This document shows positions 3,890 to 22,263 of a stretch of DNA of 64,000 bases, piece after piece (within the stretch, counting starts at the first letter, position 1; each line of letters starts with the position of its first letter). The notes under the pieces were generated by a model. That model was not told the origin of the DNA. It was given only the letters and a program-made list of their open reading frames with translations, and made no database searches. Origin of the DNA: Kofleriaceae bacterium. Lineage in GTDB: Bacteria > Myxococcota_A > Polyangia > Haliangiales > Haliangiaceae. The stretch covers positions 117,097-181,096 of the forward strand of contig DATBAS010000193.1 in assembly GCA_036271395.1 (NCBI GenBank), in the 5' to 3' direction. A program made the translations under genes and the position numbers.

Positions 3890-4222
3890 TCACCGCGCGA
3901 GCAGGCACGCGCGATCGGGCTTGCCGAGGGGCGGTAGGTCATCCTTGGCCTCGTCGCCGAGCACCGCGCAGACCGCGCCCGAGCCACAATCGCCATCGGT
4001 GTCGCACGACTGCGTGCACCGGCCGTGCGGCGTGCGGATTTGCGCGCTGCCCTCGGCCGCGTGGTGGATGCAGTAGAACGATCGACAGCCGAGCGAGTGC
4101 TCGCACTCGCCGCCGTAGCGCGACTGCCCCCACACGTTCCACGCGACGAGCGCGCCGCCGCCGAGCATGCCGATCGCGATCAGCGCGGTGCCGAGCTTGC
4201 TGAAGAATCCACGTACCGACAT
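3890..4222 (-). CDS. Small membrane-anchored cysteine-rich protein (110 aa)
   Basis: ATG at 4220-4222 overlaps the TGA of the upstream lipoprotein gene (ATGA). One N-terminal TM helix (LGTALIAIGMLGGGALVAW) is followed by 8 Cys in about 70 aa (CEHSLGCRSFYC...CTQSCDTDGDCGSGAVC...C). Confidence 0.6.
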   Translation of the reverse strand: MSVRGFFSKLGTALIAIGMLGGGALVAWNVWGQSRYGGECEHSLGCRSFYCIHHAAEGSAQIRTPHGRCTQSCDTDGDCGSGAVCAVLGDEAKDDLPPLGKPDRACLLAR

Positions 4223-5073
4223 CAGCAACCTCCGGCTTTCCGCGGCGGGCCCTGGATCTGCGCGTGGCGGCCCTCGGCGTCGTAGCGCCACGTCTCGATG
4301 ATCGGCTCGTCACACTCGGCGCCGACGACTTGCGACAGCGTGTCGCCGCCGCTGCCGTCGCGCACGATCACCGCGTGGCCGAGCAAGCTCTGCGTCCACG
4401 GGATGTACGCGAGCGCGCTGCCGCAACGCACCGGCGCGAAGCTGTACCAATCGACATCGCCGTCGTCGACGAGAAACACGTCGCCGGGCAATACCGAGCA
4501 AGCGGCCGGCCGCTGCGCGATCTGCCGAGCGAGCTCGTCGCGGCCACCGCCGTGCGCGTGCACCGCATCGACGTCGGCCCGGCTCCACGCCGCGACCGCG
4601 CCGCCGCGATCGACCACGGTGACGTGACGCGGCGCGACCGGCGGCTGCGCGTTCGGAGCGATCTCGACCGCGCTCGCGCGCAAATCCGCGATCACCGGGC
4701 TTGCCGCGGCGACCTGCTCGGCGGCCGGCTTGGTGCCGAACGCGCCGATCACGACGGCGATGCCGTGCGTCGCGGTCAGCCCGAGCTCGTCGGTGTGCAC
4801 GACGAACGGTAGGCCGAGGCCGAGCTTGCCGTCGAGCGCGGCGCGGATCGCTCGCGCCGATCGCTCGTCGGGCGCGAGGTACGCGGCGATCGCGCGCGGC
4901 GGCGTGCAGTCAGCGCACGTCACGTACGGCATCCAATAAATGCCGGCGGTGCGTTCGGGCGGCGTGCCCGACGGCGACGGTTCCTGCGCCGGTGGCGGCT
5001 GTAGCGTCGGCGCGACCGGCGCGGCTGCGCCGCCGCACGCGGCGAGCATCCACACGAGCGCGGCTTTCGGCAC
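4222..5073 (-). CDS. Lipoprotein, unknown function
   Basis: GTG start. Signal peptide plus lipobox (KAALVWMLAAC|GG), then a Pro-rich linker. Located 18 nt downstream of the 77-aa gene. Confidence 0.7.
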   Translation of the reverse strand: MPKAALVWMLAACGGAAAPVAPTLQPPPAQEPSPSGTPPERTAGIYWMPYVTCADCTPPRAIAAYLAPDERSARAIRAALDGKLGLGLPFVVHTDELGLTATHGIAVVIGAFGTKPAAEQVAAASPVIADLRASAVEIAPNAQPPVAPRHVTVVDRGGAVAAWSRADVDAVHAHGGGRDELARQIAQRPAACSVLPGDVFLVDDGDVDWYSFAPVRCGSALAYIPWTQSLLGHAVIVRDGSGGDTLSQVVGAECDEPIIETWRYDAEGRHAQIQGPPRKAGGC

Positions 5074-5325: not shown

Positions 5326-5334
5326 GACGAGCTC

Positions 5335-5652: not shown

Positions 5653-5688
5653 GTTCGACGAACGCTGCAGTCGCGATGCCGAGGATAT

Positions 5689-6807
5689 ATGTCGACCACG
5701 GGAGACGAAGCGCGCGCGTTCGATCGAGCGTTCGCGGAGCTACGGCCTCGGGACCCGGCTGCACGAGTAGCCGGCGCTGGACAGCGGACGCGTCACGCAG
5801 CGCGCTACGATGCACGCGTGATCGATCGCTCCGAGCGTTACCGCGCCATCTCGGCGCTGCGCCCGCCGCTCGACGATGTCGCGCTCGCCGAGCTCGCCGA
5901 TGCGCTCGAAGATCACGAGCTGATCATGGTCGGCACCCCGGGCTGGGAAGAGGATCGCGACAGCATCGGCTGGGCCGCGCGGCGCGTGCTCGAGACCGCC
6001 GGACCGCGCGTCGAGCGCTTCGTCGCACCGAAGCTCGCGAGCGCCGACCGCGCGGTGATCGAGCACGCGCTCGCGATCCTCGCAAAGCGCCCGGTGCTCG
6101 AGCCGGCGACGATCGACGCGATGCTGCATCACGCGGCCGATCCGAAGCTCGCGTATCACGTCGGCACCGCGCTGCGCGGCAAGCTCGACGCGCGCGCGTT
6201 GCTCGACTATCCGGAGACGCGGCTCGCCGGTTTTCTCGCGACGCCCGATCTCGAGCCGGCGTGGCTGCTCCAGTTGCTCGGCGATGCCGCGCTGCGCTCG
6301 CGCGTGCTCGGGCGCATCGCCGAGCTCGCGCCGCCGCCGCACGAGCTGGCACCCGCGCTCGTGCCGTTGCTCGCCGACGCTGCCGTGCGTTATCACGCGA
6401 TCGGCGCGCTGGCGCGGCTGCGCCCGGACGACGCGTCGATCACCGCGGCGCTGGTCGATGCCAGTGCGGTCGAGCATCACGACACGTCGTTCGCGCTCGC
6501 GCAGCGGCCGGTCGCGCACCTACGGTCGCACGTCCCCGCGCTACTCGCGCAGCTGCACAGTGGCCGCACCGGCATCGCGCGTGTGCTCGGCACGCTCGGC
6601 GACACCGCGCCGCCCGAGGTCGCGCTCGCGCTCGGCCACGAGCTCGCCGCCGGCCGCCCGTACGTCGTGCTCGTCGACGCGCTCGACGCGCTCGGCGCCG
6701 CGGCCCTACCCGCGTTACCCGCGGTGCTCGCGGCGGCGCACGATCTCGACGATGAATCCGCGCGCGAAGCCGCTGCGCAGCTCGCGGTGAAGCTGCGCCG
6801 TCACTGA
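5689..6807 (+). CDS. HEAT/armadillo-like helical repeat protein
   Basis: ATG at 5689 inside the longer track ORF 5083-6807; the upstream part is a shadow of the minus-strand genes. Repetitive LxxLLxD.AVRxxAxxAL-type helices. Overlaps the convergent gene by 7 nt. Confidence 0.6.
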   Translation: MSTTGDEARAFDRAFAELRPRDPAARVAGAGQRTRHAARYDARVIDRSERYRAISALRPPLDDVALAELADALEDHELIMVGTPGWEEDRDSIGWAARRVLETAGPRVERFVAPKLASADRAVIEHALAILAKRPVLEPATIDAMLHHAADPKLAYHVGTALRGKLDARALLDYPETRLAGFLATPDLEPAWLLQLLGDAALRSRVLGRIAELAPPPHELAPALVPLLADAAVRYHAIGALARLRPDDASITAALVDASAVEHHDTSFALAQRPVAHLRSHVPALLAQLHSGRTGIARVLGTLGDTAPPEVALALGHELAAGRPYVVLVDALDALGAAALPALPAVLAAAHDLDDESAREAAAQLAVKLRRH

Positions 6808-7757
6808 AACAGGTAGCGCGCCTCCGCGCGTGGCTCGAGCGACTCGCGCGGCAGCAGCCCCTTGCCGTAGCGCTGCGGAGCGTCTGCGCGCGAGCCCGGC
6901 ACCGACACCGGCAGCACCTTGGTGTCGTGCCAGTAGTGCGCGTCGGCGGGGTTCGAGCCGCGATTCTCGAGATGAAGCCACGGGATGTAGCCGTGCTCGC
7001 GCTCGAGCGCGTGGCCCTCCGTGCTCATCTCGTACGCGCCGTAGCGACCTTGGTCGTCACGTGCGGTGAGCTCGCCGATCGGTCCGCCGTCGCTCGGCAC
7101 GTCGGCCGCGAGCTCCGGCGTGACGATCGTCAAGCACCGCCGCGTCAGTGGATTCGCGGCCAGCGCCTGATACGCGGCGAGCTTGCGGGGATTGCCGCGC
7201 GCGTCGATCGTCATCACGCGCTTGAGGTGCGGGCTCGTCGCGAGCACGGCGAGATCGCCCGGTGCGAGCGTCGATTCGGCAAAGCGGATCTCGTCGAGCC
7301 GCGATAGCCACGGACACGCGGCGAGCTCGGCGGCAGGGAACGCGTCGCCGTCGGGATCTGGGAAGAACTCGATGCCGCGGAGCGGTGCGAGCTTGGTCAA
7401 CACGTAGTCGCCGCGCTCGAGGAACAGGTGCGGGTTCATGCTGCACAGCCACGGCAGCCCGCGATGAAACTCGACGGTGCGATAGGTCTCGATCTCTCCC
7501 ATGTACATGCCGAGGTCGCGCGACCACCGGCGCGCGTGCTGGCGGAGCAACGCGTCTTCTTCGCCGCTCTTGCCGCCGATGAGCGAAACGCCCGGGTTGT
7601 AGAACGTCTCGCGCATCCGCTTCGACATCGCGAGCTGACGCTCGATGAAATCGGCGCGCGGCGGATCGCTCGCGGCGATCGCGGTCGCGAGCTTGTGTCT
7701 CGGCGCGTCGTCCTCGGGATTCGCGAGGATCGCGTCCATGCACTCGTCGGCTGTCAT
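6801..7757 (-). CDS. TIGR02996 (repeat-companion) domain protein with leucine-rich-repeat-like C-terminal part
   Basis: N-terminus [36 protein letters not shown] matches the TIGR02996 signature (NPDDD..R...AD.L...GDPRAEFI). Its ATG overlaps the TGA of the giant gene (ATGA at 7754-7757). Confidence 0.75.
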
Positions 7758-10700
7758 TCCGTCGAGCTTACACCGGTGTATTTTTCGGGGTGCGCGCGGC
7801 GATCCGCGCCGTAGCGTGCGGCTTGCGTCGTCGATGCCGCGTAGGCACCGTCGAAGAAGCCGCTCTCGTTCGGCGCGTCGTGCAGGCTGGACGCCTGGAC
7901 CCTCGCCTGGTCATCCGCCGGCAGCTTGCTCAAGTCGACCGCGCGGCTTGCGGCACCGGTGATGTCGATCGCCACGGACTTCGCGCCTGCGTGCGGGGTC
8001 ACCTCGACGCGGTACGCGATGTAGTGGCGATCGTCGTCGAACAGCGCCTTGAGCTCGACCTTGCCGCCGTTGCGCTCGGCGGCGTCGCACATCGCCGCGA
8101 TCGGCGCCGGCACGTCGTTGTAACGGCCGAGCGCCGAGATGTACGTATCGCCGACGAACGCTTTGTTGGCGCGCGCGTCCGGATCGTTCAGGTTCGCCGG
8201 GTCGATCGGCTTGACCGGCGTCGCATTGACATCGTAGCCGCCGGCCGCGTCCTTCTTCGGCCGGCCGAGCATGTAGCCATCCTCGAAGTGGAAGCGATTG
8301 TCCGCGGTCGCTTCGGGGGTCAAGCCGAAGCGCGCGCACAGATCCTTGCCGTGCTTTTGCACGACCCGGCGGAACTGATCGTTTTCGAGCAGGCCGGCCG
8401 GGGAGTCCTTGCCGACCATCGTGACATCGGCGCGCGGGTTCTTGTCGAGGATGATCTCGGCCGCGCTGATGCCGGTGCCGCCGGTGCCGCCGATCACGAC
8501 CTTGTTCATCTTCTGGATCTTCGCGTCTTCGAGCTGGTTGGCCTCGTCGCCCGTCAACAGGTGCTCGCGATCGTGCGCACGCAGGTTCGACCAGTTCTCG
8601 CCGGCTCCGAGCACGTCGAGCGCCGACTTCGCTCCTTTGGCGAGGTCCTCGTTCGCCAGGTTCGTCATCTGATCGCGCAGCGGTTGCGGAAGTGCGGCCA
8701 AGGCTCGCTGGGCATCGCCATCCGCTTGGCCGTGCATCGTCTTCAACACGCCGAGCGCGTGATCGGCTTCGCTCTTGATCGTCGCCGTCGCGGCCGGATC
8801 GGCTTTGACCGCGACGAGCGCTTTCTCGATGCCAAGCAGCGCTTGGCGCGGCGATGGTCCGCGAGCACCCGGCGCATTCTCGCGCGAGAAGCCGGTTGCC
8901 ATCGGCGGCACGCCGTCGACTTCGATCACGACCGGCGCGCTGCCGTCGTTCGGGGTGATCGTCGCGATCAGCGTGCCGTCGTCGCGCGCACCGAGCTCGG
9001 CGCGACCATCGATGAGGTCGCCCTGGATCGCGATCGAGTCCTGACAGAACTCGAGCGCCTTGACCGGCAAGCGGTTCTTGGCATCCGCGAACTCGTGCGG
9101 ATCGCCGATGCCGGCCGCCTTCATCGCCTCCATTTGCTGCGCGGTTTGCGCGACGGTCCCGCTCGCGTCTTTCGCCCAGCGCGCGTTCGCGTCGACCAGC
9201 AGCACGTTGGGATCGCGCGCCGACAGCGACGCGTTGCCACCGATCATCATCTTCCACTTCTTGTGGACGCCGTCTCGGATCATCTCGCGGATGTTCGCGA
9301 GCGTTTCCGCACTCTTCTTCACGCGCGCCGCACGTGCACCGTTGGCGAGCGTCGTGAGCTCGGCGGGCGTGACCACGTGATCGGCGCCCGTCGTCGGCAT
9401 CTTCGCGACGGTCGGGGCGTTCGCATCGCTGCGACCTTGCATGTCGAGCCGGTCCTGGTCGGCCCGGCTGCGCGTACGCTCGAGCTGCTGCTGATCGGTC
9501 GCCGACATCTCGGCTTCCGGAATGCGCGCCTTGTCGAGCGTCGCGGCCACCGACGGGTCACCAACCACCTGCTTGACGAGCTCGAAGCGTTCGTCCGCAT
9601 GCGGCGAGCCCTCGCGCAAGCCGAGCTCCTCGACCAGTGCCATCAGCTCGCTGCGAGCATGCGATGCGCCGGGCTCCTGGCCGGCCATGATGTCGTGCGC
9701 GAGCACGCCTAGCTCTGCGACGCGACCGCGGTCGTGTGGGCTGAGCTTGCCGGTGCCATCGCTGCCAGCACGCAAGACGTCGGCGCCGACCTTCTCGCCG
9801 GCGTCGAACAGCTCGCGGCGCGCCATGATTTCGGCGACCTCGTGCGCGACGGCTCGACGCACGTTCGCTTCTTCCATCTTGTCCGACAGCTGGATGACGT
9901 AACGACCCTCGATCGACTCGACGCCGCCCGCGACCGCGGTGCGTCCTTTCTTGCTCGGATTCAAGATCGATTGCGCGACCGTATCGACATTGAGCGGTAC
10001 GACGTCGACGCGAATCGTCAGCGCGGTGTCGCCCACTTTTACCAAGCGCGTGTTCTCGGCGATCGTCCGGACCTCGGGCTTCGCAGCGCGATCGACGCTT
10101 GCCTTCTCGACCGGACCGACCGACGCGAGCGCCTCGTCGAGCGCGGAGCGTCCCGTCGCGAGCACCGCGTCCGCGTGCGCCTTTTGCGCCTGCTTCGTCA
10201 TGTGCGACCAGCCCGGTTGGCTGTCGCCGAACTTCGATCCGGGCACGGCCGACGCCGTGACCTGGTAGCCACCGTCTTTTTCCTCGGCGACCTGCTTGGC
10301 GCCGGTCGCGGGCTTGGTCGAGGCTGGATCGGTCGGGCCGTGATCGGCCGGGTTGACGTGATCGCCGGGGTTGGGGTGATCGCCGCCGTTGCCGTGAGCG
10401 GCACCGGGCGTGCTCGGCGGCGTGACCTCGCCGGGTTTCGCGTTCGGCGTCGACGGATCGATCGTCGGATCGTGCGGCTCGGCCGGCGCCTTGCCCTGCG
10501 AGCGCTTGTAGGCGTCGATGATCTCCCCGCGATGTGCTTCGCCCGCGTTGTGGATCACCGAGCCGGCGACGGCCATCAACGCGTTCTGCGCGATCGCGTC
10601 CGTCATCTCCTGACCGATGCGATCGCTGACCACCTTCGCGCGCGCCATGACCTCTTGCTTCTTCGCCTCGATCTCGCTCGGCGGCTTGCCCGAGCTCTCG

Positions 10701-13700
10701 AGCGTCTGCAGCTCCTGGTACAGATCGGCGAGCGCGTCGACATCCTGCGATTGGAGCTGGCGCGCGGCCTGAACCGACTCGGCCGTCATCAGCACGGCTT
10801 GACCGCCCCAGTTCGCGGCCTCGAGTAGGAACCATCCCTTCGTGAACGCCTTGGCCTCGCCCGCCATCGGCAACACGTTGAGCGCGATCTCGCCGACCGA
10901 GCACGCCGCCTCGCCGAGCGTGAGCGTGCCGCGCTCCGAGTCCGTGCGCAGCCGATCGATCGCCGGGATCGAGTTGTATGCGATGAGCAGCGGCGCGACG
11001 ATGATCGCCGAGCCGGGCACGAACGCCATGATCGCCATCGCACCGAGGTTGGTGACGATGTTCGCGACCGGGCTCCACACCGTCTCTTTGAACCGCTTCC
11101 AGGTCGAGTCCGTGCCGAGCTGGAACCCGACCGTCTTGCCGTTGCCCTTGCCGATGGTCGGGCTGCCGTCCTGCATGCCCGTGTCGATCGACTCGGCCTC
11201 GATCGCGACGACACCTTTCGGGTACGCCTTGGCGAGGTCGACGAACGCGTCTTTCAGCGCTTCGTCGAACGTGTCGCCGTAGCCATGGGTCGTCGAGTCC
11301 TCGTTGTCGAATCGTCTCGACAGGTCGCGGAGCTGAACCGTGACCTTCTCTTGCGGCATGGCTCCGCCCTCGTCGTCACCCGATGACGGCTCGAAGTCGG
11401 TGTAGACCGAGCCGTAGAGCGTGAGCGCGCCGCTCGGAAGTCCGTCGGTGCGCGACAAATACGTGCCGCGAACCTGGAACGGCTGCCAGCCGTTCTTGCG
11501 GTCCTGCAAGAGCGCCTTGTCGGTGGCGTTCGACGCCTCGATCTGGCGATCGATCGCATCGAGCGCGTCTTGCGAGCCGCCGTTCGCCTTCAAGTACATC
11601 TTCGTCGCGAGCAGGCGCTTGCGGTAGTCGGCGCGAGTGGCCTCGCGTGGATCCGGCGTGTTGACATCGCTCGGCTTGAAGTCGGGTGGCAGCTCGCCGA
11701 CGGTCTTGAAGCCGTCGTCGTCATCGCCACTACCGACGATGCCGAACGTCTCCTTCGTCGTCTTCTCGTTCCGCGCCGCCATGTCGGTGAACGCTTCGCC
11801 GCGCAGGTCCTTCATCGCAGCAGCGGTCGACTTCACCTCGACGAGACGCGTGAAGTCCGCGGGCTCGAAGTACTGATCGAAGCTCGCGTGAACGGTGACG
11901 CGGAACGTGCCGGTGTCCTGACCTTCGGGCAGCACGAACGCGTGCTGGAGCTCGGCGATGTCGGTCTGGAGCACCGTGCCGCTCGTCGGAGCTGCACGCG
12001 TCGCTGCTCCAGGCGGAGGCGGTGGCGGCGTCGCCGGCAAGGCCGTCGGCATCGGCGCTGGAGTCGTCGGCGCTGGAGCTCGCGTCGTGCTCGGCGCGGG
12101 CGCAGCTGGCCCACCACCGCCGGTCGCCGGTGCACCACCACCTGCGGGCGCGGGCGCGCTCGATCCGCCGCTCGTCACGAGCTCGATGTGCCACTCGCAA
12201 TTGAGCAGCGTGACATCGCCTTGGTGACCCGGCGTGACGAACGGAACGCGCTCGTACTCATCGCTCGGGTAAAAGTTGGGCCACTTGACCTTGATCTCGA
12301 GCCATGCGGCGTGACCCGCCTCGACGACGTCGCGATCGATATCGAGGACGCCGGGAATCTTCTCGCCGTAGAAGTCTTTGAGCTTGAGCTTCGGCGTCGC
12401 GACCGGATCGCTCTTGTCTTTCTTGATGTCGCCACGCAACCAGCGCGAGTAGGCACTCTCGCCCGTGGTGTCCGGGTCGAAGAAGATCCGCTCGCCGAGC
12501 CGCTTGCCGATCTGCCACATCACGGCGCCGGAACCGACCTGTGCTTTCGCCTCGGCCGCGAGCTCCTGGAACCCTTGCAGCGCGCCGGGATCGGGCTTGA
12601 GCTCGGTCAGCGAGGCCATCGCTCGGATAATCTCGAGCCGCTGCGGATCGTCGAGCTCGATCACCGTTCCCGGCACGAGCGTTTGATCGGGCACGTACAG
12701 CGTGACGTCGACGGCGTCCTTGATCTGGCTTCGCGACGCGACCGGATGGGTGTCCGGCAAGCCCGTCCACTTGTAGGCACTCGCTTCGAGCTGCATCACC
12801 ACGATGTTGCCCTTGAGCTCGAAGGTCGCCTGTTGCGCCGCGACTTCGAGTCGATCCTTGTGAATCCAACCGAGCGCACCCAGCGCTTCGCGCGCACGAG
12901 ATACGGACATCCCGTGCTGGCCTTTGTCTACGAGCTTGAAATCATCGGCGGCACGGAGCCATGCCATGACCATCCAGAACTGCGCGGGCGCCTGCGCCGA
13001 GATGATCCTGTACGGCAAGTTGTTATCCGAGAACACCGGCCACTTCGAGCCCGGTGGAGTCACGGTGCCGTCGGCGGCATCGTCTTTCGCGCCGGGCGTC
13101 GTGGTCTTGCGCTGCACCGCCGCGCCGCCGCCGGTGCCGGCGTGCTCGTCGAGCAACGGCGCCGCTGACCTGCCGGCGACGACCGCATCGGCAACCGCGT
13201 CGGCGTGCTGCTCGTGTGGATCGCCCCCGCCGCCGTCGATGCCGCCCTTGAGCGATACGCCGCTGCGCTGCTGGACGACGTGCGCCGCTTCGTGCGCCGC
13301 CGTGTGTAAATCGGGCGCGCCACCGGCGAACGCGACGTCGTCGCCGGTCGCGTAGGCCTTCGCGCCGAGTTGCTGCGCCGACGCGTCGACACCGCCGCCG
13401 ACGTGCGCGCGAACGTTCGAGACATCGTGATGGCCGAACGCGGCTTGGATCTTGTCGCCGTGCGGCATCGCGCCGCCCGCGCCGAGACCAGCTTGCGCGA
13501 CCGCGGACGGATCGCCGGCGGTCGAGGCTCCATCGGCTTTGCGCTGCACCGGCGGTGCCGCCGATGCGACTTGGATCGGCGCCGCGACGTCGTTCCACGC
13601 CGTCGTCATCGTAGGCAGCGACTTGTCGATCGCCTGGTTCGTGACACCGTCGCCGACCTGGTTCGCGCCGTCGAGCATCCGGCTCTTCAGCGTGCGCTTG

Positions 13701-16700
13701 CCGTCGCGGATGCCGGCGTACGTGCGCTCGAACAGATCATCGAGCGCCTGCTCGGTATGCGAGAACGCGTCCTGGAGATGATCGGCGCTCTGGATGATCG
13801 TGTCGGCGATCTTCTGCGCGCTGCTCGGATCGATCGACATGTTCGAGAACCCGTCCATGTCGGTCTTCGTGTGCTGCGCGACCGTCTTGAACTCGTCGAC
13901 GATCTGCTTCGACGCCTTCTTCGCCGGTCCCTGTAGATCGACGCCTTGCGCGTCCTTGCCGGTGTGGTTCGTCAGCGCGAGCTTGAGCTGGTTGTGATAA
14001 TCGTCGGCGCGCGACTCGAGTTGCCCCGTCATCGAGTCGCCCTGACCGGCGACGTACTGCGATGCCGAGTGGACCGCGGCGGTGTCGCCGCTATCGTTGG
14101 TCGCGACCTCGGGCTCGGGCTGGGGCTGCGGCGCCGGCGCTTGCGGCTGCGGCGTCGTCGCCGATGCGGTCATCGCAGCCATCGCGACGGCCGCGACGCC
14201 ACCACCGCCCGCGGCGGCGGTCGTGCCGGCCGCACTCGCGCGCGCGTCGCGCTGCGTTTCGGCGGCCGCGTCGGCCTTTTGCTTCGCCTGCGCCGCCGCG
14301 ACTTCGGCGTGCAATTGCGCCAAGAAGGTCTGCGCGAACGCTTTCTCCTCGGCGAGCTGCTGCTCGAACGTCGCGATGTCGGCCATGAAGTTATCGGCGT
14401 CGGTGATGTTGCGATCGCACTCGCCGATCGCGTCGGCGGCGCCCTGCGCTTCCTTGGTCGCGTCGGCACCGAGCTTGATCGCGGTTTGATTCGCCTGGCC
14501 CGCGGTCTGCGCGCCGCCCTGCGCGACGCCGTGCGCCGCCGCTTGCTGGCGCTTGAGCGCGCCGGCGTAGTCGCGCATGTCGCCCATCGACACGCCGCAC
14601 AGCCCTTTGAGCACGACCGACGCGATCTTCTCCTGGATCCAGCCGAACACCTGGGCCGCTTTGTCTTTGGCCCAGCGCTTCACCGCGCCGAGCACTCGGC
14701 CCCAGAACCCGCGGTCCTCGGGCTCGGGCAGCTCGGTCGCCGCCTTTTGATTCGCGGCACCGCGCGCTTCACCTTGCTTGCTCTCGCCTTGGCCGGCGTG
14801 CGATTCCGACGCGCCCGCGCTCGCGACGTTTTGCTGCGTGCTCTGGATCGTCGCGCCGGTCGCTTGTTGATGCGCTTGCGCCGCCGCGGCGCGCAGCTTC
14901 GCGTACTCCTGATAGCGGCCGTACACGGCGAGCGTGTCGACGGCCTTCTGCTTGCCCTCGATCTGCGCCTTCTTGAACTCGACGCCGACCTTGCGCATCC
15001 AGCCGAAGTCGGACTGCGCGTGATCGAAGTCCGGCATCATCGCCGGCCAATACGGCAACGGCTGCGCGGCCGACTCTTCCATCGCCGCCATCGCGACGCT
15101 CGCGACGGTGGGCGCCGGCGCGTCGGGCTCCGGGCCCGCTGCGGCGACGCCGGGTGCGCCGGGTGCCACCTGCGGCGTGATCGCCATCGTCTCGCTGACC
15201 ACGGGTGGCGCGACCGCCGTCGGGCCTGGCGCCGGCGTCGGCGCCGACGTCGTCGGGGCCGGTGCGTTCTGCGGCGGCGCGCTGACCGGACGCGGCTTCG
15301 CCGTGATCGGCGACAACATGCTGCGCACGCTCGAGCCGACGCCCTGCGGCCGCTTGCTCGTTCGCACGAAGTTCGCGAAGTCGGCCATCTGCGCCTGTTG
15401 CGCCGTCGCCGCGATGTCGGAGTACGTGCCGTGACCGCCGCGGCTCGCCGCGTTGCCCGCGGCCTTGCCCTTGTCGTACTTGACCGTCTTCTTGAGGTTG
15501 CCCTTTTCGGCCGCCTGCCACGCCGTCGGGCCGTCTTTGAGCCCGGCGAGCTCGAGCGCTGGCTGCGCCGCGCTCCACACGTTCGAGCCGACATCGCCCC
15601 AGTTCTTGTAGTCGGGATGGCGCACGGCTTCGCCGCCCGCGGCGATCGCCGCGACATCCTTCTCGTGGACCGCGTTGAGCCGGCGCGCTTCGTCGAGCGG
15701 CTTGAGCTGGCTGTTGAGCGCGGCGAGCTTGGTGTCGTCTTCGGCGCTGCGCGATGCCTTCGCGAGCAGGTCGGCGCGCTCGGAGTCTTGCGCTTTGAAG
15801 TCGCCCTCGAGCTGGAACCGCTTCGCGCGCGAGCCGTGCAGCGTGTCCATCTGCATGTCACGCGCGTTCTTGCCGGTGAACGAGTTGGTCTCGTTCGAGA
15901 AGTATTCGTCGCGGTGGCGCTCGAACCGCGTCTTCTTCATCTCCTCGATGCGCGCGTCGGTCGCGGCCTTCGCCTCTTTCGCTTCGAAGTCGGTGGTGGC
16001 GTCGGCACGCACGGCCGCGCCGCGCGACGCGACGAACTTCTGCTCGGTCGCATCGCTGCGGATCTCGTCGGGGTTGGTCTTGCCGCGCTTGTCGAGGTAG
16101 TTCTGCCACCGCGTCTCTTCGAGGTGCGCGGCGTCGTTCGCCTGCACTTGCATCGCGAGCCGGCGCGTCTCGAGCTCGGATTGATCCGCCGCGGCGGTCA
16201 TCCGCTGCGCGAACTTGGTGTCGCTGCCGGCGTTGCCGACGGCCGAGCCGGCGCGCTTGCCGAGATCGCCGACTTTCTCTTCGAGATCGAACTTGCTCGC
16301 GACCGAGCCGCTCCATGCGCCGACGCGATCGAGCCCGCGCGCGAACGCGGTGTCGCCGTAGCGCGACATCAGCTTGGTCTGCATCGCTTCGAGGTGCTCG
16401 GGCGCGGCATTCCACGCCTTGCCGACGCGGCTCTCGCTGATCGCGGTCTTCGTGCGCGCGATCATGCCGGTGTCTTTCCACGCACCGCCGACGCGGTCCA
16501 TCGCGGCACCGCCGAAGCCGAGCTTGCGCACGATCTTGTTCGCGAACAGCTTCAGATCACCGCTCGCCTTGATCGAGACCCGGCCGATCGTCGCTTTCGC
16601 GCGGCGCATCAGCGCGCCGACTACGCCCTTGCTCGAGCTCATCAGCCCCGACATGAACTTCGGCCCGAAGATCATCGCCATGTTGACGAAGCCCGAGGCC

Positions 16701-17776
16701 GCATCGTTCGCCTCCGACATCATCAAGTCGGCGGTCGCGGCTTTCTCTTCCGCCGACGAGCCCGCCGCGATCTGCTGCGCGAGCACGACGCCGTTGAGCC
16801 CGGTGAGAATTCCGGATAGCGCGAACGCGACGGCCTCGCAGATGATGCCGACGACGTTCAGGATCCGCGCGATGCCCGAGACCGCCACGCCGATCGGCGG
16901 AAAGATCATGCCGAGCAGGCCGATCACGGTGAGGACGATGCCGAGCTTGCCGCAGATGTTGCCGACGACGCCGCAGACGTTCTTGACGGCCGACAAGCCC
17001 GTCATGATGCCGCCGAGGATGCCGTGGACTTTGCGATACGGGTTGTTCGCCCACACCGCACCGGCTTCTTTGCCGGCGCCGAGGAAGTTCGCGGTTGCCG
17101 CGACACCGCGCTCGACGGCGCCGCCCTGCGCGACGTAGACGTCGAGCTGGCCGTTGAAGCCCTGCGCGATGTCGCCCATCTGCTTGATGCGGCCGAGCGT
17201 CTGCGTGGTTTGCGCCGCTTTCGGCGTGTACGCGTTGAGGATCCCATCGAGCTGCGAGTCGCCGCCCGCCGTCGCGACCGCGGCTGCGATCGTCGGCGCG
17301 GGCGCGGCCGCGGGTGCCGCCGGCGCGGCCGATTTCGCCGCGGGCGTCGCCGGTAGCGGCGCGTGTTGCGCGGGCGTGCCGCCGGTCGCGGGCTGCGGCG
17401 TGGTCGGTCCGGCGTGCGCGGCGATCGTCGGCTGCGCGACCTGCGGATGTGCGACCGGACCCGGCGTCGGTGCTGCGCCTTCTTCTTTGGGCGCCTTCGA
17501 CTGGTTTTGCGCGACGAGGTTCTTCTGCTCCTCGACCTTGCCTTGAACCTGGCTTTTTTCGTCGGCCGCGCGCGAATCGACCTCGCCGAGCATGCTCTGT
17601 AGCCAGCCCATCGGGCTGTTCTTGATCGCGTCTTCAACCCGCGAGATGGTCGCGGCGTCGCCGCCACCGTCGGCTTGCGTGACCGCGGCGTGCTTCGCGA
17701 TCGCGGCCTGCGCGTTCGCGGCCCCATGCGCAGCTCCGGCGCCTGCTCCAGCTCCACCAGCGGGTGCTTCAGCCAT
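7754..17776 (-). CDS. Giant mosaic protein (3,340 aa) with internal DUF4157-type module, two hydrophobic glycine-zipper modules, coiled-coil/PT-rich linkers and Rossmann-like C-terminal domain; putative polymorphic toxin/effector
   Basis: Single uninterrupted GC3-rich ORF. DUF4157-like segment [35 protein letters not shown]...[11 protein letters not shown] at about nt 13108-13550. Hydrophobic modules at about 16760-17030 and 10780-11080. [19 protein letters not shown] at about 8470-8510. Confidence 0.9.
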
Positions 17777-17842
17777 ACGCCCATCATACGGAAATCGCAG
17801 GGACTAGCTCCCCGGCCACCGCGTGCTTTAAAGCGGAGCTAG

Positions 17843-19012
17843 CTAGCTGGGATTCCTGGTCTTTTCGTGTGCGATCTGATCGGCCAGGCGGTTCGCGTGC
17901 TCGACGTCGCGCGCGATCGCGGAAAGGCGGTCCGGGCCGATGCGATCGCGAAGGCGCGAGAGCAGCGGCCGGAATCGTTCGCCGACATCGCCGCCCGTCG
18001 CATCGGCGAGCGCGCGATGCGCCTCGACGATCGTGCGAAACGCCGACACGTGATCGCCGGAGCGCGCGTAGAGCTCGGCCATGATCCCGACGGATGCCAC
18101 GTACTGCGCGACGTCGTGACGCTCCGCGGCCTGTCGCGCGAGCTCGAGCACGCGATCGATCGCGTGGGCGGTCTTGCCGCCGCTCGCGAGCACGCCGGCT
18201 TCCGCGATCAGCGCGGCCGCGTGGAGCTCGGCGAGCTCGTGCTGCTTCGCGAGCTCGAGCGCGCGTGTCACGGTGGCCGCGGCCTCGTCGCGTGCGATCG
18301 CATCGGCCGTCGCCACGAGCGCGCCGGCGAGCGCGAGCCGCGCTTCGATCTCGTCGGCGGGCGAGCCGGCGTCTCGCGCGATCGGCACCGCGGCTCGCAG
18401 CGAGCGCGCGGCGCGCACCGGCTCGCCGATCGACAGCGCGAACGCGGCGAGCAACTGGTGGCCGGCGAACGCGACGTCGGGCTCGACGACGCCGGTCACG
18501 ACCTGCGCGACCGCGTCGAACGCGACGGCGTCGGGCGGATCGTCGTGCAGCGCGAGCTCGGCGATCGCGAGCGCGACCTCGACGGTGACGACGTCCCAAC
18601 CGTCGCCGGTCCCGAACGCCGGCAACCGCGCCGCCGCTTGCACGAGCGTCGCGCTCGCCAGCGCACGCGGCTCGGGGCCGCGCCGGATCGCGATGCGGCA
18701 CGCGCGCACGCCGGCCAAGAATCGCAGCACGGTGTCGTCCGGGGCGTGACGGCCGACCGCTTCGAGCGCCTGATCGGCGCCTTCGTAGTCGCCTTCGGTC
18801 ATCTTCACGCTCGCGAGCCGCAGCAGCAGGCGCGCGCGCAGGATCGCGTGCTCGGCGGTTTCGAGCAGCGGCGCGGCGGCGTCGATCGCTGCGCGCACGG
18901 CGTCGGCGCGATGACCGAGCAGCGGCTCGCGCTCGGCGCGCTCGACGGCGATGCGAGCATCGTCCATGGCCGACAACGTATCATCGTATGCTAGGGGCGT
19001 GAGCGAGGCCAC
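17843..19012 (-). CDS. All-alpha (TPR-like) Ala/Leu/Arg-rich protein; start ambiguous (GTG 19012 or ATG 18967)
   Basis: 389-aa ORF 66 nt upstream of the giant gene on the same strand. TPR-like G-Y/A patterns (MTEGDYEGADQALEAV). The ATG at 18965-18967 (MDDARIAV...) would remove the overlap with the divergent gene. Confidence 0.6.
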   Translation of the reverse strand: MASLTPLAYDDTLSAMDDARIAVERAEREPLLGHRADAVRAAIDAAAPLLETAEHAILRARLLLRLASVKMTEGDYEGADQALEAVGRHAPDDTVLRFLAGVRACRIAIRRGPEPRALASATLVQAAARLPAFGTGDGWDVVTVEVALAIAELALHDDPPDAVAFDAVAQVVTGVVEPDVAFAGHQLLAAFALSIGEPVRAARSLRAAVPIARDAGSPADEIEARLALAGALVATADAIARDEAAATVTRALELAKQHELAELHAAALIAEAGVLASGGKTAHAIDRVLELARQAAERHDVAQYVASVGIMAELYARSGDHVSAFRTIVEAHRALADATGGDVGERFRPLLSRLRDRIGPDRLSAIARDVEHANRLADQIAHEKTRNPS

Positions 19013-20084
19013 GCCGGTCGTACAGCTCGCGCAGCTGCGCGCGCGGATCGCGGCGTTCGCGCGCGGCGGTCGCTACGATCTCGCGATCGGTTTGCTCGGC
19101 GAGCTCGCACGCGTCGATCTCGCGCTCGGCCTGGCCGCGGACGGCGTCCAGCGCGCGCGCCAGGCGGTCCAGCTCGCCGACGAGCGCGGCGAACCGAGCG
19201 CCGGCCCGTTGATCGTGCTCGCCGCGACGCTACTCGCCGCCGATTCTCCCGACGCTGCGATCGATGCTTGCGCGCTTGCGATCGAGCGGACGCGGTCAAC
19301 CGAACGACCGCGCGTCGAGCTGCTCGCCCGGCTCGTCGGCGGCGCGGCCCAGCGCCGCGCGAATCGACTCGCCGCCGCGCGCACCCTGCTCGACTCCGCG
19401 CGCGGCGCCGCGGCGCGAATCGGCGAGACGCGGCTCGCCGCGCTCGCGCTCGCCGAGCTGGCGTGGATCGACCTCGCCGAAGATCGACCGGATGCCGCGG
19501 CGACGTGCTTCGAGTTCGCGGCGCGGTTCTTCGCGCATGGCCACGGCGACGGCGACGCCGACGCCGAGCTCGACGCCGGCGCGCTAGCGACGGCGTGCTG
19601 GATCGTCGCCGGCGACGACACCGGCGTCGATGAATTCTGCAAGCGCGCGCGTGCAGCGAAGCGACCCGAGCTTGCCGCGTACGTCGACGGCGTCGTCGCC
19701 GAGCTCGCGCTGCGCCGCAATTCGCCGCAGATGCGCGACGCGATCGCACGCGCCGCCGCGAGCGCCGAAGCGGCCCGCGACGCCAACGCGCTCGCGCATG
19801 CGCTGTCCGCGCGCGCGAGGCTGCGCCAAGCGCGGACGTCGCTCGATCCGGCCGATCGCGCGCGGCACCTCGAAGCCGGCATCGAGCTCGCGCTCGCGCT
19901 CGATCGCCGCCGCGCCGGCGCGGAGCTCGGCACGCTGATGATCGCGCTGGTCGAAGACGCCGCGCGCACGCGAACGCCGCCGGCGCTCGATGCGATCGCG
20001 CGGCTGGCCGCGGCGATCGAGCACGTCGGCGACGCGAGCCTCGCGGATCTCGCCGGCGCCGTGCTCGCCGAGGTCGCGCGATAA
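18999..20084 (+). CDS. All-alpha (TPR-like) Ala/Leu/Arg-rich protein
   Basis: GTG at 18999 within track ORF 18951-20084. Helical repeat composition. TAA stop at 20082-20084, followed by a palindromic element. Confidence 0.55.
   Translation: MSEATPVVQLAQLRARIAAFARGGRYDLAIGLLGELARVDLALGLAADGVQRARQAVQLADERGEPSAGPLIVLAATLLAADSPDAAIDACALAIERTRSTERPRVELLARLVGGAAQRRANRLAAARTLLDSARGAAARIGETRLAALALAELAWIDLAEDRPDAAATCFEFAARFFAHGHGDGDADAELDAGALATACWIVAGDDTGVDEFCKRARAAKRPELAAYVDGVVAELALRRNSPQMRDAIARAAASAEAARDANALAHALSARARLRQARTSLDPADRARHLEAGIELALALDRRRAGAELGTLMIALVEDAARTRTPPALDAIARLAAAIEHVGDASLADLAGAVLAEVAR

Positions 20085-20163: not shown

Positions 20164-22259
<2,096 letters not shown>

Positions 22260-22263
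<4 letters not shown>

What the first reader, a model, noticed from the sequence alone, without database searches (positions are those of the whole stretch)
7754..17776. Giant mosaic ORF looks like a fusion: about 1,400-aa membrane/coiled-coil head joined to a DUF4157-headed toxin-like body
A single 10-kb ORF reads, in order (approximate): a Gly/Ala-rich start; a PT-rich linker; hydrophobic module 1; about 1,000 aa of charged coiled-coil-like sequence with further PT/PQ linkers; DUF4157; an unknown globular region ([13 protein letters not shown]...CEWHIELV); a poly-Pro/Ala linker; more unknown domains; hydrophobic module 2; a His/Pro/Gly-rich spacer; an unknown domain containing AHEVAEI; and a Rossmann-like tip. 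Long low-complexity linkers between globular blocks and a variable-looking C-terminal tip are the grammar of polymorphic toxins. However, none of the usual trafficking heads (Rhs/YD, filamentous haemagglutinin repeats, LXG, PAAR, MafB, SitA-type lipobox) is visible.
Basis: partly seen in the sequence, partly recalled or inferred. Interest (0 to 1): 0.8.

Follow-up and report, generated by a model that had tools for sequence, protein, structure and literature searches.

The report
Carrier protein fused to swappable toxin
This 3,340-residue gene is real: a rare myxobacterial membrane and coiled-coil "carrier" protein has captured, through a DUF4157 coupling domain, a swappable toxin cassette of the kind linked to phage-tail-like injection systems, giving natural "armed" and "unarmed" versions that could show what DUF4157 does.

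Summary
Window 7754-17776 (minus strand) is one 3,340-codon ORF with coding-type GC3 throughout, and the modules lie in the order described.

The fusion idea is supported.
- Residues 1 to about 1405 form a complete "head" protein. It occurs free-standing (1,273-1,578 aa) in many Kofleriaceae-like loci and ends exactly where the DUF4157 module starts here.
- Residues about 1406-3340 form a complete DUF4157-headed effector, which also occurs headless elsewhere.
- In all nine assemblies where the head is extended, the extension begins with PF13699.

Polymorphism is strong. Two MAGs share 94.9% DNA identity up to the end of DUF4157 and nothing after it. Tips seen in relatives include adenosine deaminase, RelA/SpoT (followed by an HD hydrolase gene) and an endonuclease. 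Here the tip is a new cassette: an adaptor plus a flavoprotein-like two-Rossmann enzyme, followed by a co-diverging partner gene.

DUF4157 is itself the recognised marker of PVC/eCIS polymorphic toxins. The divergent neighbour is an Afp15/Pvc15-type ATPase.

No sheath, tube or baseplate gene was found by Pfam among the window ORFs scanned, or by tblastn in the window and 37 related loci. The delivery route is therefore inferred, not shown.

Verdict: a new variant of a known kind, moderately interesting.

The parts
7754..17776 (-). Giant ORF, 3,340 aa: head + DUF4157 coupler + body + tip
   Evidence: ORF and translation. GC3 coding signal along the whole length. In-frame homologues of 3,299-3,640 aa and longer in other assemblies.
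17282..17776 (-). aa 1-165: N-terminal Gly/Ala/Pro/Thr-rich, probably disordered leader, with a short conserved block at aa 32-98; no Sec-type hydrophobic signal
   Evidence: Composition. The aa 32-98 block is conserved in all head homologues. It resembles in kind the disordered N-terminal loading sequences of CIS cargo (bioRxiv 10.64898/2026.05.27.728243). That resemblance is an inference.
16514..17263 (-). aa 172-421: most conserved head block, with a hydrophobic helical-hairpin region (NNPYRKV..., FPPIG, EEKAA..D)
   Evidence: Hydropathy peaks at aa 267-334. About 30 invariant residues across 16 sequences. 43-85% identity in all head loci.
15062..16513 (-). aa 422-905: charged, poorly conserved stretch plus a P/T-rich linker; shortened or missing in distant head proteins
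   Evidence: Composition. Lower identity of 24-54%. Not matched in the L025 head paralogues, where hits skip aa ~420-906.
13562..15061 (-). aa 906-1405: head blocks 2 and 3 (PLPYWPAMM..., helical) separated by a PQ linker; the natural C-terminus of free-standing heads maps to aa ~1375-1405
   Evidence: blastp against P0026-P0041 and a junction alignment. The unarmed head in L031 is followed by a stop codon.
13106..13561 (-). aa 1406-1557: DUF4157 / eCIS_core / PVC-metallopeptidase module. HEAAHVVQQ lies at aa 1495 and DPHEQHAD at aa 1519. PVQRK (aa 1409-1413) and AVQRK (aa 1553-1557) flank the module. It marks both the fusion joint (N side) and the cassette swap point (C side).
   Evidence: PF13699, aa 1442-1506, E 1.7e-11. 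57-80% identity in 19 loci. Flanking VQRK motifs conserved. The DNA breakpoint between L003 and L004 lies right after ...SAEGLLD.
10457..13105 (-). aa 1558-2440: 'body A'. Two unknown globular regions are separated by a Pro/Ala linker, followed by hydrophobic module 2 (aa ~2233-2275) and a helical region.
   Evidence: Homologous at 44-62% only to L001, L002, L016, P0023, P0024 and P0025. A hydrophobic module at an equivalent position occurs in all DUF4157 relatives of more than ~1,000 aa. No Pfam or PDB sequence match. The AF2 model was unusable.
10262..10456 (-). aa 2441-2505: His/Pro/Gly-rich spacer; second recombination zone
   Evidence: Similarity to body-A relatives ends at aa 2428-2522. 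Similarity to tip-cassette relatives starts at aa 2495-2586.
9287..10261 (-). aa 2506-2830: 'HEVAEI' adaptor domain, the N-terminal part of the tip cassette
   Evidence: Conserved in P0001-P0006, in L004, and twice in L013 ahead of different C-termini. The His is not invariant, so a catalytic role is doubtful.
7757..9286 (-). aa 2831-3340: tip enzyme domain with two dinucleotide-binding motifs ([11 protein letters not shown] at aa 2845; [18 protein letters not shown] at aa 3093), flavoprotein-like
   Evidence: AF2 model with mean pLDDT 73.5. Foldseek top hits are all class-B flavin N-hydroxylases (PvdA, SidA, KtzI, DfoA), E ~1e-4, TM 0.3-0.48. No sequence-level match to Pfam or PDB.
6801..7757 (-). 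Downstream 318-aa gene, translationally coupled (ATGA overlap); candidate cognate partner or immunity protein of the tip
   Evidence: It follows the tip cassette in L001, L030, L029 and L004. Its identity (54, 50, 33, 31.5%) tracks that of the tip (50, 49, 30, 33%). No family hit.
17843..19012 (-). 389-aa Ala-rich helical (TPR-like) protein immediately upstream of the head, same strand
   Evidence: Precedes the head in every head locus that has upstream flank. The L025 orthologue has a weak TPR_12 hit.
18951..20084 (+). 377-aa Ala-rich helical protein, first gene of the divergent operon
   Evidence: Conserved next to the ATPase. No family hit.
20164..22263 (+). Afp15/Pvc15-type AAA+ ATPase (WHD variant + degenerate D1 + canonical AAA)
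   Evidence: PF22977 + PF00004. Serratia Afp15 and the ATPase of the Nostoc CIS cluster have the same architecture. 33-35% identity to both over 77-92% of the length.
22260..24158 (+). 632-aa HEAT-repeat protein, last gene of the ATPase operon
   Evidence: Frame analysis. HEAT_2 hit, below Pfam's gathering score (24.8 vs 27.7 bits). Orthologues in L025, L031, L035, L036, L049, L050 and others.
3890..4291 (-). Small Cys-rich protein with one hydrophobic helix. In 'unarmed' loci it directly follows the head gene, so it marks the far edge of the ~9.7-kb cassette insertion.
   Evidence: tblastn 42-61% to the gene after the head in L025, L031, L033, L039, L041, L043, L049 and L050.
2051..3877 (-). 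608-aa conserved protein of unknown function, the last syntenic member of the head module
   Evidence: 36-70% identity downstream of the small protein in unarmed loci. No family hit.

Best explanation
The ORF is one genuine gene for a 3,340-aa polymorphic effector. It arose when a DUF4157-headed toxin cassette was captured in frame at the 3' end of a lineage-specific 'head' gene.

The conserved module (shown by comparison):
- The head (aa 1 to ~1405) consists of a disordered leader, a conserved transmembrane helical hairpin, and charged and helical regions.
- Its conserved chromosomal module runs HEAT protein - Afp15/Pvc15-type AAA+ ATPase - helical protein, then divergently helical protein - head - small Cys-rich protein - 608-aa protein.
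- In many relatives the head stops at aa ~1405.
- In this window about 9.7 kb has been inserted after it. The insert carries DUF4157, body A, the tip, the partner gene and a few further ORFs.

Proposed mechanism (inferred by analogy with CIS cargo and with the tape-measure-like effectors Tme and Sle1/Sle2):
- The ATPase recognises and unfolds the disordered N-terminus and hands the protein to a phage-tail-like injection particle encoded elsewhere in the genome.
- The head acts as the carrier and, through its hairpin, as a membrane-inserting element.
- The DUF4157 zincin module, flanked on both sides by a conserved (A/P)VQRK motif, is the coupler and probably the self-releasing peptidase between carrier and cargo.
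- Body A, with the second hydrophobic hairpin, helps translocation.
- The tip cassette (adaptor plus a flavin/NAD(P)-type two-Rossmann enzyme) is the payload.
- The co-diverging downstream gene protects the producer against the payload.
For: The gene is real and continuous.

The head occurs as an independent protein:
- Only 75 relatives were found among 1.84 billion representatives.
- Twelve full-length relatives of 1,273-1,578 aa lack DUF4157. Those whose alignment reaches the C-terminus end at positions matching window aa 1360-1404.
- L031 has the same synteny with an unarmed head.
- Unarmed loci: L033, L039, L041, L043, L044, L049, L050, L052/53.

Every extension starts with DUF4157:
- Nine of nine extended heads continue into PF13699: window, L004, L009, L003, P0033, L034, L035, L036 and L037.

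Headless effectors with the same body exist:
- L001, L002, L016, P0023, P0024.

Cassette swapping:
- L003 and L004 are 94.9% identical over 1,438 nt, ending exactly at the end of the DUF4157 module, and are unrelated after it.
- Against L004: ATPase 88%, head 77-84%, body no match, tip 32-34%, partner gene 31.5%.

Tips are diverse, and at least one sits next to a plausible antidote gene:
- A_deaminase in L003.
- RelA_SpoT followed by an HD_4 hydrolase gene in L027.
- Endonuclea_NS_2 in L012.

The tip and the partner gene co-diverge across four loci.

Link to contractile injection systems:
- PF13699 with the HExxHxxQ...E signature (PMC3482391, PMC8213781).
- The ATPase has the Afp15 architecture and 33-35% identity to ATPases inside complete CIS clusters.
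- A Pvc16_N gene sits in the orthologous module of L025.
- Precedents for huge, TM-containing, largely disordered DUF4157 effectors and for ATPase-dependent loading exist (PMC11126660; bioRxiv 10.1101/2025.11.06.686954; bioRxiv 10.64898/2026.05.27.728243).

Tip fold.
Against: Missing CIS machinery:
- No sheath, tube, spike or baseplate gene was found by Pfam in the window ORFs scanned.
- tblastn with a complete Nostoc CIS gene set found none in 453 kb covering the window and 37 head loci. The only hit was DUF4255 in L025.
- Whether these genomes have a CIS at all is unknown.

Other points against:
- DUF4157 was dispensable for loading AlgoCIS cargo (bioRxiv 10.64898/2026.05.27.728243), and its peptidase activity has never been shown.
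- The head shows no detectable sequence similarity to any annotated family, so its carrier and membrane-inserting role is pure inference.
- The tip's enzyme assignment rests on a moderate model (pLDDT 73.5) and low TM-scores (0.3-0.48). No toxin of this fold is known to me.
- The Streptomyces plasmid copy of the tip cassette lacks the partner gene.
- Expression and the full-length product have not been tested.
Confidence: 0.68

Rival explanations
1. CIS-independent system. The seven-gene module (ATPase, HEAT, two helical proteins, head, small Cys-rich membrane protein, 608-aa protein) is an autonomous apparatus. The ATPase would insert the head into, or extract it from, the producer's own envelope. 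The DUF4157-coupled cassette would then be displayed or released without any contractile particle. Alternatively, the system could act inside the producer, for example in regulated cell death as in Streptomyces.
For: The module is conserved as a unit in about 30 loci, and none has a sheath, tube or baseplate gene within roughly 10 kb. The window's 64 kb also has none among the ORFs scanned. The module is chromosomal and flanked by housekeeping genes. Unarmed heads are common, so the head has a function of its own.
Against: Both the Afp15-type ATPase and PF13699 are highly specific markers of CIS loci (odds ratio 2614 for DUF4157 in PMC8213781). L025 carries a tail-terminator-like Pvc16_N gene inside the module. 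Effector and ATPase genes can lie away from structural clusters. No secretion component of any other kind was recognised in the module.
Confidence: 0.2
2. The head is a structural, tape-measure-like component of a contractile particle rather than a cargo carrier. The giant protein would then be an 'evolved' structural protein with a toxin extension, analogous to evolved VgrG, PAAR or Hcp in type VI secretion.
For: The head is long and helical, has a hydrophobic hairpin and is accompanied by chaperone-like helical proteins, features shared with tape-measure proteins and with Tme and Sle1 (PMC11126660; bioRxiv 10.1101/2025.11.06.686954). It sits next to Afp15- and Afp16-like genes in L025, where a tape-measure gene sits in afp clusters.
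Against: No PHROG match at E <= 0.1 and no Pfam match other than PF13699 at E <= 1. tblastn with Serratia Afp14 found nothing in the head loci. Two tandem head paralogues in L025, and head lengths varying from 1,039 to 1,578 aa, fit poorly with a length-determining ruler.
Confidence: 0.1
3. Artefact: the long ORF is an assembly or sequencing fusion of several genes, or a chance open frame in GC-rich DNA.
For: High-GC DNA gives many long spurious ORFs. One example is 22356-24230 on the minus strand. One relative (L001) is split over several frames.
Against: GC3 periodicity is uniform over all 33 bins. The in-frame head-DUF4157-body architecture occurs in eight other independent assemblies. Every module is conserved at the protein level. 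The L001 split occurs in a relative, not in the window.
Confidence: 0.02

Closest known systems
PVC-metallopeptidase (DUF4157/eCIS_core) polymorphic toxins, i.e. eCIS-associated toxins (Zhang et al. 2012, PMC3482391; Geller et al. 2021, PMC8213781)
   Same: PF13699 with the HExxHxxQ...E signature. A constant peptidase module is followed by long linkers (>1,000 aa is documented) and highly variable C-terminal toxins exchanged by recombination. A CDC48-like AAA+ ATPase is a neighbour. Haliangiales examples are already noted in the 2012 paper.
   Different: Here DUF4157 is not N-terminal; it follows a complete 1,405-aa protein. No CIS structural genes are nearby. A partner (immunity-like) gene is present, whereas many PVC-type toxins lack one. 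The tip family has not been described.
Tme of Streptomyces davawensis (BN159_7576, 2,247 aa; PMC11126660)
   Same: A giant DUF4157 effector with predicted transmembrane helices, large disordered fractions, coiled-coil segments and a C-terminal toxin (a nuclease in Tme). It is physically associated with a CIS.
   Different: Tme has DUF4157 at the N-terminus and lies inside a CIS gene cluster. Its tape-measure and EndA homologies were not found here (Pfam and PHROGs negative; HHpred not available). Sequence homology to Tme could not be tested.
Sle1/Sle2 of Streptomyces lividans (bioRxiv 10.1101/2025.11.06.686954)
   Same: Sle1, a cargo with a coiled coil and a transmembrane hairpin, is encoded immediately upstream of Sle2, a DUF4157 protein. 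Sle2 binds Sle1 and the spike complex. The gene order Sle1 then Sle2 equals the domain order head then DUF4157, so the giant ORF looks like a fused version of such a pair with a toxin cassette added.
   Different: Two genes rather than one. Sle1 has the coiled coil first and the hairpin last, which is the reverse order within the head. The Sle genes are adjacent to the sheath gene. No sequence comparison was possible.
AlgoCIS cargo Cgo1/Cgo2 and PVC payloads loaded by Alg15/Pvc15 (bioRxiv 10.64898/2026.05.27.728243; PMC11495950)
   Same: The NTD(disordered)-DUF4157-CTD grammar is reproduced by the headless relatives (L016, L015, L014). An ATPase of the same architecture is encoded next door.
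   Different: In the window a 1,405-aa structured head with hydrophobic helices takes the place of the short disordered NTD. At 3,340 aa the cargo is about three times the size of the largest tested cargo.
Evolved (specialised) VgrG, PAAR and Hcp effectors of type VI secretion (own knowledge; analogy only)
   Same: A conserved machine or carrier protein exists both 'unarmed' and with C-terminal toxin extensions that are swapped between strains, and the toxin-bearing forms have cognate immunity genes downstream.
   Different: An unrelated protein family and machinery. Here the coupler is always DUF4157.

Membership tests
PVC-metallopeptidase / DUF4157 (PF13699) polymorphic toxins | Match to PF13699 above the curated threshold | tested here: met
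   44.6 bits against a cut-off of 22, aa 1442-1506.
PVC-metallopeptidase / DUF4157 (PF13699) polymorphic toxins | HExxHxxQ motif plus a downstream conserved Glu (PMC3482391) | tested here: met
   HEAAHVVQQ at aa 1495 and DPHEQHAD at aa 1519, conserved in the closest homologues aligned.
PVC-metallopeptidase / DUF4157 (PF13699) polymorphic toxins | A constant peptidase module followed by variable C-termini generated by recombination | tested here: met
   DUF4157 is 57-80% identical in 19 loci, while the sequence after it is unrelated in most. A sharp DNA breakpoint separates L003 from L004. Tips include A_deaminase, RelA_SpoT, Endonuclea_NS_2 and unknown types.
PVC-metallopeptidase / DUF4157 (PF13699) polymorphic toxins | The peptidase domain occupies the N-terminal region of the protein | tested here: not met
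   It starts at aa ~1406, after a complete head protein. The polarity relative to the toxin (peptidase N-terminal to the toxin) is kept.
PVC-metallopeptidase / DUF4157 (PF13699) polymorphic toxins | Encoded in or near a CIS locus (sheath, tube, gp25 baseplate, CDC48-like ATPase) | tested here: inconclusive
   An ATPase of the Afp15 type is adjacent. No sheath, tube, gp25 or VgrG was found in the window or in 37 related loci. The rest of the genome was not available.
PVC-metallopeptidase / DUF4157 (PF13699) polymorphic toxins | Autoproteolytic release of the toxin | not testable with these tools
   Only the conserved flanking (A/P)VQRK motifs can be offered as candidate sites.
Afp15/Pvc15-type CIS ATPase (neighbour gene 20164-22263) | WHD-variant N-domain (PF22977) plus a single canonical C-terminal AAA domain, about 700 aa | tested here: met
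   In the window protein (699 aa), WHD is at aa 49-203 and AAA at aa 496-620. In Serratia Afp15 (696 aa), WHD is at aa 24-207 and AAA at aa 491-615. The Nostoc CIS ATPase has the same layout.
Afp15/Pvc15-type CIS ATPase (neighbour gene 20164-22263) | Sequence similarity to ATPases embedded in bona fide CIS clusters | tested here: met
   35% identity over 92% of the length to the Nostoc pn3 ATPase and 33.5% over 77% to Serratia Afp15. Both clusters were checked for tape measure, DUF4255, sheath, tube, VgrG and gp25.
Tme-like tape-measure-related CIS effectors (PMC11126660) | Very long ORF with TM helices, disordered regions and coiled coil | tested here: met
   3,340 aa, two hydrophobic modules and several low-complexity linkers. 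Coiled coil was not formally predicted.
Tme-like tape-measure-related CIS effectors (PMC11126660) | DUF4157 in the N-terminal region and conserved synteny inside a CIS cluster | tested here: not met
   DUF4157 is internal, and there is no CIS cluster around it.
Tme-like tape-measure-related CIS effectors (PMC11126660) | Remote homology to phage tape-measure proteins | tested here: inconclusive
   No PHROG match at E <= 0.1 and no Pfam match other than PF13699 at E <= 1. Afp14 tblastn was negative. HHpred-type profile comparison against tape-measure families was not available.
Two-dinucleotide-binding-domain flavoproteins / class B N-hydroxylating monooxygenases (tip, aa ~2831-3340) | Fold with two Rossmann-type domains | tested here: inconclusive
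   Foldseek top 37 hits are all PvdA, SidA, KtzI or DfoA, with probability 0.9-1.0 and E ~1e-4. However, TM is only 0.3-0.48 and the model's pLDDT is 73.5.
Two-dinucleotide-binding-domain flavoproteins / class B N-hydroxylating monooxygenases (tip, aa ~2831-3340) | Sequence membership (Pfam K_oxygenase / Pyr_redox families) and cofactor binding | tested here: not met
   No Pfam hit at E<=1. No PDB sequence or profile hit. Only two GxGxxG-like motifs are conserved. Cofactor binding cannot be tested here.

The most novel reading that the evidence does not exclude
The conserved module of ATPase, HEAT protein, helical proteins, head, small membrane protein and 608-aa protein may be a previously unrecognised delivery system that contains no phage-tail parts. 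It would have borrowed only the Afp15-type unfoldase and the DUF4157 coupler from contractile injection systems. It would use the head's transmembrane hairpin as its own membrane-crossing device, with DUF4157 as the universal plug that attaches and then cuts loose exchangeable toxin cassettes.
Probability: 0.2. Interest if true: 0.85.

Novelty: new variant of a known kind. Interest (0 to 1): 0.6.

Why it matters
The role of DUF4157 is an open question. It is the strongest sequence marker of contractile-injection-system toxins, yet recent papers describe its role as still to be studied, 'mysterious' or 'elusive' (PMC8213781, PMC11297309), and it was dispensable for loading in AlgoCIS.

This locus family offers a natural experiment:
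- The same carrier gene, in the same synteny, exists unarmed (it stops at aa ~1405) and armed.
- In nine of nine armed cases the first thing added is DUF4157, flanked by a conserved (A/P)VQRK motif.
- The recombination breakpoint lies exactly at the C-terminal edge of DUF4157.

Together these make 'coupler plus releasing peptidase between a carrier and its cargo' a directly testable hypothesis. They also link the split Sle1/Sle2 pair of Streptomyces to a fused form.

The locus raises a second question: can an Afp15-type ATPase module work at a distance from, or without, a contractile particle?

It also yields cassette boundaries that could be useful for engineering, and a new candidate effector enzyme (flavoprotein-like) with a cognate partner.

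Tried and rejected
Searches that failed or found nothing:
- A whole-protein homology search timed out, so the protein was searched in three pieces.
- Family and sequence searches of the whole protein returned only PF13699. This covers Pfam, PHROGs and PDB sequences. A PDB search with a profile of the tip also found nothing.
- The neighbours 389 aa, 377 aa, 318 aa and 608 aa gave no Pfam or NCBIfam hit.
- The exact protein is not in the contig index.

Structure prediction:
- The AF2 model of body A (aa 1555-2330, 4-sequence alignment) had mean pLDDT 38.9. It was discarded and not fold-searched.

Ideas tested and dropped:
- The 'AHEVAEI' motif as a second metallopeptidase site. The His is replaced by Ser or Ala in P0005 and P0006.
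- The heads of L013, L010 and L006 as homologues of this head. An HMM of the head gave no significant match except just before DUF4157. Those proteins instead start with an extra N-terminal DUF4157, although weak profile hits to their hairpin region exist.
- ORF 22356-24230 (minus strand) next to the ATPase. It is a spurious Arg-rich frame; the real gene is the plus-strand HEAT protein.
- A CIS cluster in the window or in related loci. None was found.
- Assembly artefact. Rejected on the grounds given under the rival explanations.

Full report
**1. The observation**

Window 7754-17776 holds a single minus-strand ORF of 3,340 codons with an ATG start. The window is about 70% GC, a setting in which long spurious ORFs are common, so I checked codon-position composition. 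In all 33 consecutive 100-codon bins GC3 is 0.74-0.96 while GC2 stays at 0.40-0.70. That is a coding signal with no frame change.

The N-terminus MAEAP... is shared by homologues. The stop codon overlaps the ATG of the next gene (ATGA).

Pfam recognises only PF13699, now named 'eCIS core domain' and formerly DUF4157, at aa 1442-1506. PHROGs and PDB sequence searches find nothing.

**2. Neighbourhood**

- Upstream on the same strand lies a 389-aa Ala-rich helical protein.
- A divergent operon encodes a 377-aa helical protein, a 699-aa AAA+ ATPase (PF22977 WHD variant plus PF00004) and a 632-aa HEAT-repeat protein.
- The ATPase is of the Afp15/Pvc15 type. It is 33.5% identical over 77% of its length to Serratia entomophila Afp15, which lies between the CIS tape-measure gene and the DUF4255 gene.
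- It is 35% identical over 92% of its length to the ATPase of a complete CIS cluster on Nostoc plasmid pn3. That cluster has sheath, tube, VgrG, gp25, baseplate and DUF4255 genes. There the ATPase sits two genes downstream of a 2,074-aa DUF4157 polytoxin.
- Afp15 and the window protein have the same domain layout.
- None of the window ORFs that were scanned matches a sheath, tube, spike, baseplate or terminator family. The flanks are housekeeping genes such as HisRS, dihydroorotase-like and PurN-like.
- Closest relatives come from Kofleriaceae/Haliangiales MAGs in the Myxococcota.

**3. Is it a fusion?**

Yes, and the joint can be located.

The head (a profile of aa 165-840) has only 75 relatives among 1.84 billion representative proteins. 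Twelve full-length relatives are 1,273-1,578 aa long. They are collinear with window aa ~32-1404 and have no DUF4157. Those whose alignment reaches the C-terminus end at positions equivalent to window aa 1360-1404, just before the motif PVQRK.

Locus L031 shows the full synteny of the window: HEAT, ATPase (76% identical), helical protein, then divergently helical protein and head. There, however, the head stops at 1,372 aa. It is followed directly by a small Cys-rich protein and a 608-aa protein. The window's orthologues of these two genes lie at 3890-4291 and 2051-3877. The window therefore carries a ~9.7-kb insertion between the head and the small gene.

A metagenome scan gave 31 more loci.
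- Unarmed heads followed by the small gene: L033, L039, L041, L043, L044, L049, L050, L052/53.
- Heads that continue in frame into PF13699: L034 (3,394 aa), L035, L036, L037 (at least 4,175 aa).

Adding the window, L004 (3,640 aa), L009 (3,299 aa), L003 and P0033, nine of nine extended heads begin their extension with DUF4157.

Conversely, DUF4157 proteins with the same 'body A' (aa ~1558-2440) exist without any head. Instead they have a ~70-200-aa leader before the PF13699 module. These are L002, L016, P0023, P0024 and the frame-split L001.

An assembly artefact is excluded because the junction recurs in independent assemblies.

**4. Polymorphism**

The DUF4157 module is 57-80% identical across 19 loci, whereas the following sequence is unrelated in most.

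The clearest case is L003 against L004. They are 94.9% identical over 1,438 nt, and similarity ends abruptly right after the module's last conserved motif (...SAEGLLD). After that point the proteins differ completely.

Window against L004:

| Region | Identity |
|---|---|
| ATPase | 88% |
| Upstream helical protein | 77% |
| Head | 77-84% |
| Body | no match |
| Tip | 32-34% |
| Downstream 318-aa gene | 31.5% |
| Gene beyond the cassette | 63% |

A second swap zone lies in the His/Pro/Gly spacer. Body-A similarity stops at aa 2428-2522, and tip-cassette similarity starts at aa 2495-2586.

Tips seen in relatives:
- A second DUF4157 plus adenosine deaminase (L003).
- RelA_SpoT followed two genes later by an HD_4 hydrolase gene, a plausible antidote to an alarmone-synthetase toxin (L027).
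- Endonuclea_NS_2 (L012).
- Annexin repeats and two further adaptor-plus-unknown-domain units (L013).
- Several unknown types.

**5. The tip here**

Residues ~2506-3340 form a cassette that also stands alone: P0002 in L030, P0006 in L029 directly after an Afp15-like ATPase, and P0005 on a Streptomyces plasmid. It has two parts.

- The first is an adaptor domain containing 'HEVAEI'. The His is not invariant, so a catalytic role is doubtful.
- The second is a ~500-aa domain with two conserved GxGxxG-like motifs.

An AF2 model of the cassette has mean pLDDT 73.5. Its top Foldseek hits are all flavin-dependent N-hydroxylating monooxygenases (PvdA, SidA, KtzI, DfoA), with E ~1e-4 and TM 0.3-0.48. 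Thioredoxin-reductase-like oxidoreductases come lower in the list. There is no sequence-level support. I therefore call it flavoprotein-like at the level of fold only.

The 318-aa downstream gene follows the cassette in four of five contexts. Its divergence tracks that of the tip: 54, 50, 33 and 31.5% for the partner against 50, 49, 30 and 33% for the tip. This is the behaviour of a cognate partner such as an immunity protein. Binding and protection have not been tested.

**6. Mechanism**

What is shown:
- The gene fusion.
- DUF4157 as the obligatory joint and as the recombination boundary.
- The constant association of the head with an Afp15-type ATPase.
- A conserved hydrophobic hairpin in the head, and a second one ~650-1,300 aa after DUF4157 in all the long relatives examined, headless ones included.
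- The (A/P)VQRK motif on both sides of the DUF4157 module.

What is inferred, from published work:
- CIS cargo is built as disordered NTD - DUF4157 - CTD and is loaded by the AAA+ ATPase (bioRxiv 10.64898/2026.05.27.728243).
- Tme is a giant DUF4157 effector with TM helices (PMC11126660).
- Sle1, a cargo with a coiled coil and a TM hairpin, is bound by the adjacent DUF4157 protein Sle2, which also binds the spike (bioRxiv 10.1101/2025.11.06.686954).
- DUF4157 has been proposed to be a releasing peptidase (PMC3482391).

On this basis I propose the following. The ATPase engages the disordered N-terminus. The head acts as carrier and membrane-inserting element. DUF4157 couples the cargo to the head and later cuts it loose. 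Body A helps translocation. The tip is the payload.

The weak point is that no contractile machinery is in sight. tblastn with the Nostoc CIS gene set against 453 kb (the window plus 37 head loci) found only a DUF4255/Pvc16_N gene in L025. The route could therefore be a CIS encoded elsewhere, which is my preferred reading, or something that needs no particle.

**7. Comparison and novelty**

Giant DUF4157 polymorphic toxins with long linkers are known, including in Haliangiales (PMC3482391, PMC8213781).

What I did not find described in the papers read:
- A rare, conserved head family that exists armed and unarmed and is always armed through DUF4157.
- DUF4157 in an internal position as an inter-protein joint.
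- The Afp15-type ATPase module lying apart from any CIS structural genes.
- The flavoprotein-like tip with its co-diverging partner.

I rate this a new variant of a known kind, with interest 0.6.

Noticed in passing
window 5092-5739 (minus strand): Two small ORFs (80 and 134 aa) lie inside the inserted cassette region. Both have N-termini resembling double-glycine bacteriocin leaders (LSTVLGG, LATITGG). The larger one has LAS/M15-peptidase-like motifs (HWLGRAID, HFDHVH) and a weak PHROG hit to a base-spike protein (E 0.005). They sit in a lower-GC patch (0.58 against ~0.70).
   Followed up: partly
window 22356-24230 (minus) versus 22260-24158 (plus): The long minus-strand ORF is an Arg-rich spurious frame. 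The real gene is a plus-strand 632-aa HEAT-repeat protein whose start overlaps the ATPase stop. tblastn 'conservation' of the spurious frame merely reflects conserved DNA.
   Followed up: yes
window about 5750-6807 (plus strand): Another HEAT-like, Ala/Leu-rich ORF, convergent with the 318-aa partner gene and inside the inserted region. It was not recognised by my GC3 filter and was not searched further.
   Followed up: no
L025 (GCA_007133195.1, SLNH01000403.1) 1-18000: A more distant version of the module has two tandem free-standing head paralogues (1,039 and 1,192 aa), each preceded by a helical-protein gene. It also has two WHD-AAA ATPases (704 and 1,119 aa) and a Pvc16_N (tail-terminator-like) gene. 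This is the only phage-tail-related structural gene seen in any head locus.
   Followed up: partly
L013 6317-20317 and L010 (Haliangiales MAGs): ORFs of at least 4,667 and at least 4,375 aa have a different head that itself starts with a degenerate DUF4157. They carry a second DUF4157 at aa ~1,290, annexin repeats, two 'HEVxEI' adaptor units and a P-loop region. In effect they are multi-cassette polytoxins.
   Followed up: partly
L026 10001-23700 (ENA contig_479_np1212): A headless body-A effector is interrupted by an IS21-type element (rve + IstB) and resumes as a 919-aa ORF. It is followed by four tandem genes of 269-278 aa, possibly an immunity-gene array.
   Followed up: no
L028 (Streptomyces plasmid OZ186886.1) 8001-10841: The tip cassette (adaptor plus flavoprotein-like domain, 31% identical) occurs as a 946-aa stand-alone protein on an actinobacterial plasmid. 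It lies beside conjugation genes (TraG/TrwB-like, TrbL-like) and has no 318-aa partner homologue, which implies inter-phylum transfer of the cassette.
   Followed up: partly
giant ORF aa 1409-1413 and 1553-1557 (window about 13538-13552 and 13106-13120): The motif (A/P)VQRK occurs exactly twice in the 3,340 aa, once on each side of the DUF4157 module. It is conserved at both positions in most homologues. The two copies are candidate processing sites.
   Followed up: partly
window 42715-43290 (plus) and 39991-42513 (minus): A YbjN/T3SS-chaperone-like protein (PF22551/PF10722) and an 840-aa protein with nine CarboxypepD_reg repeats. No evident link to the finding.
   Followed up: no
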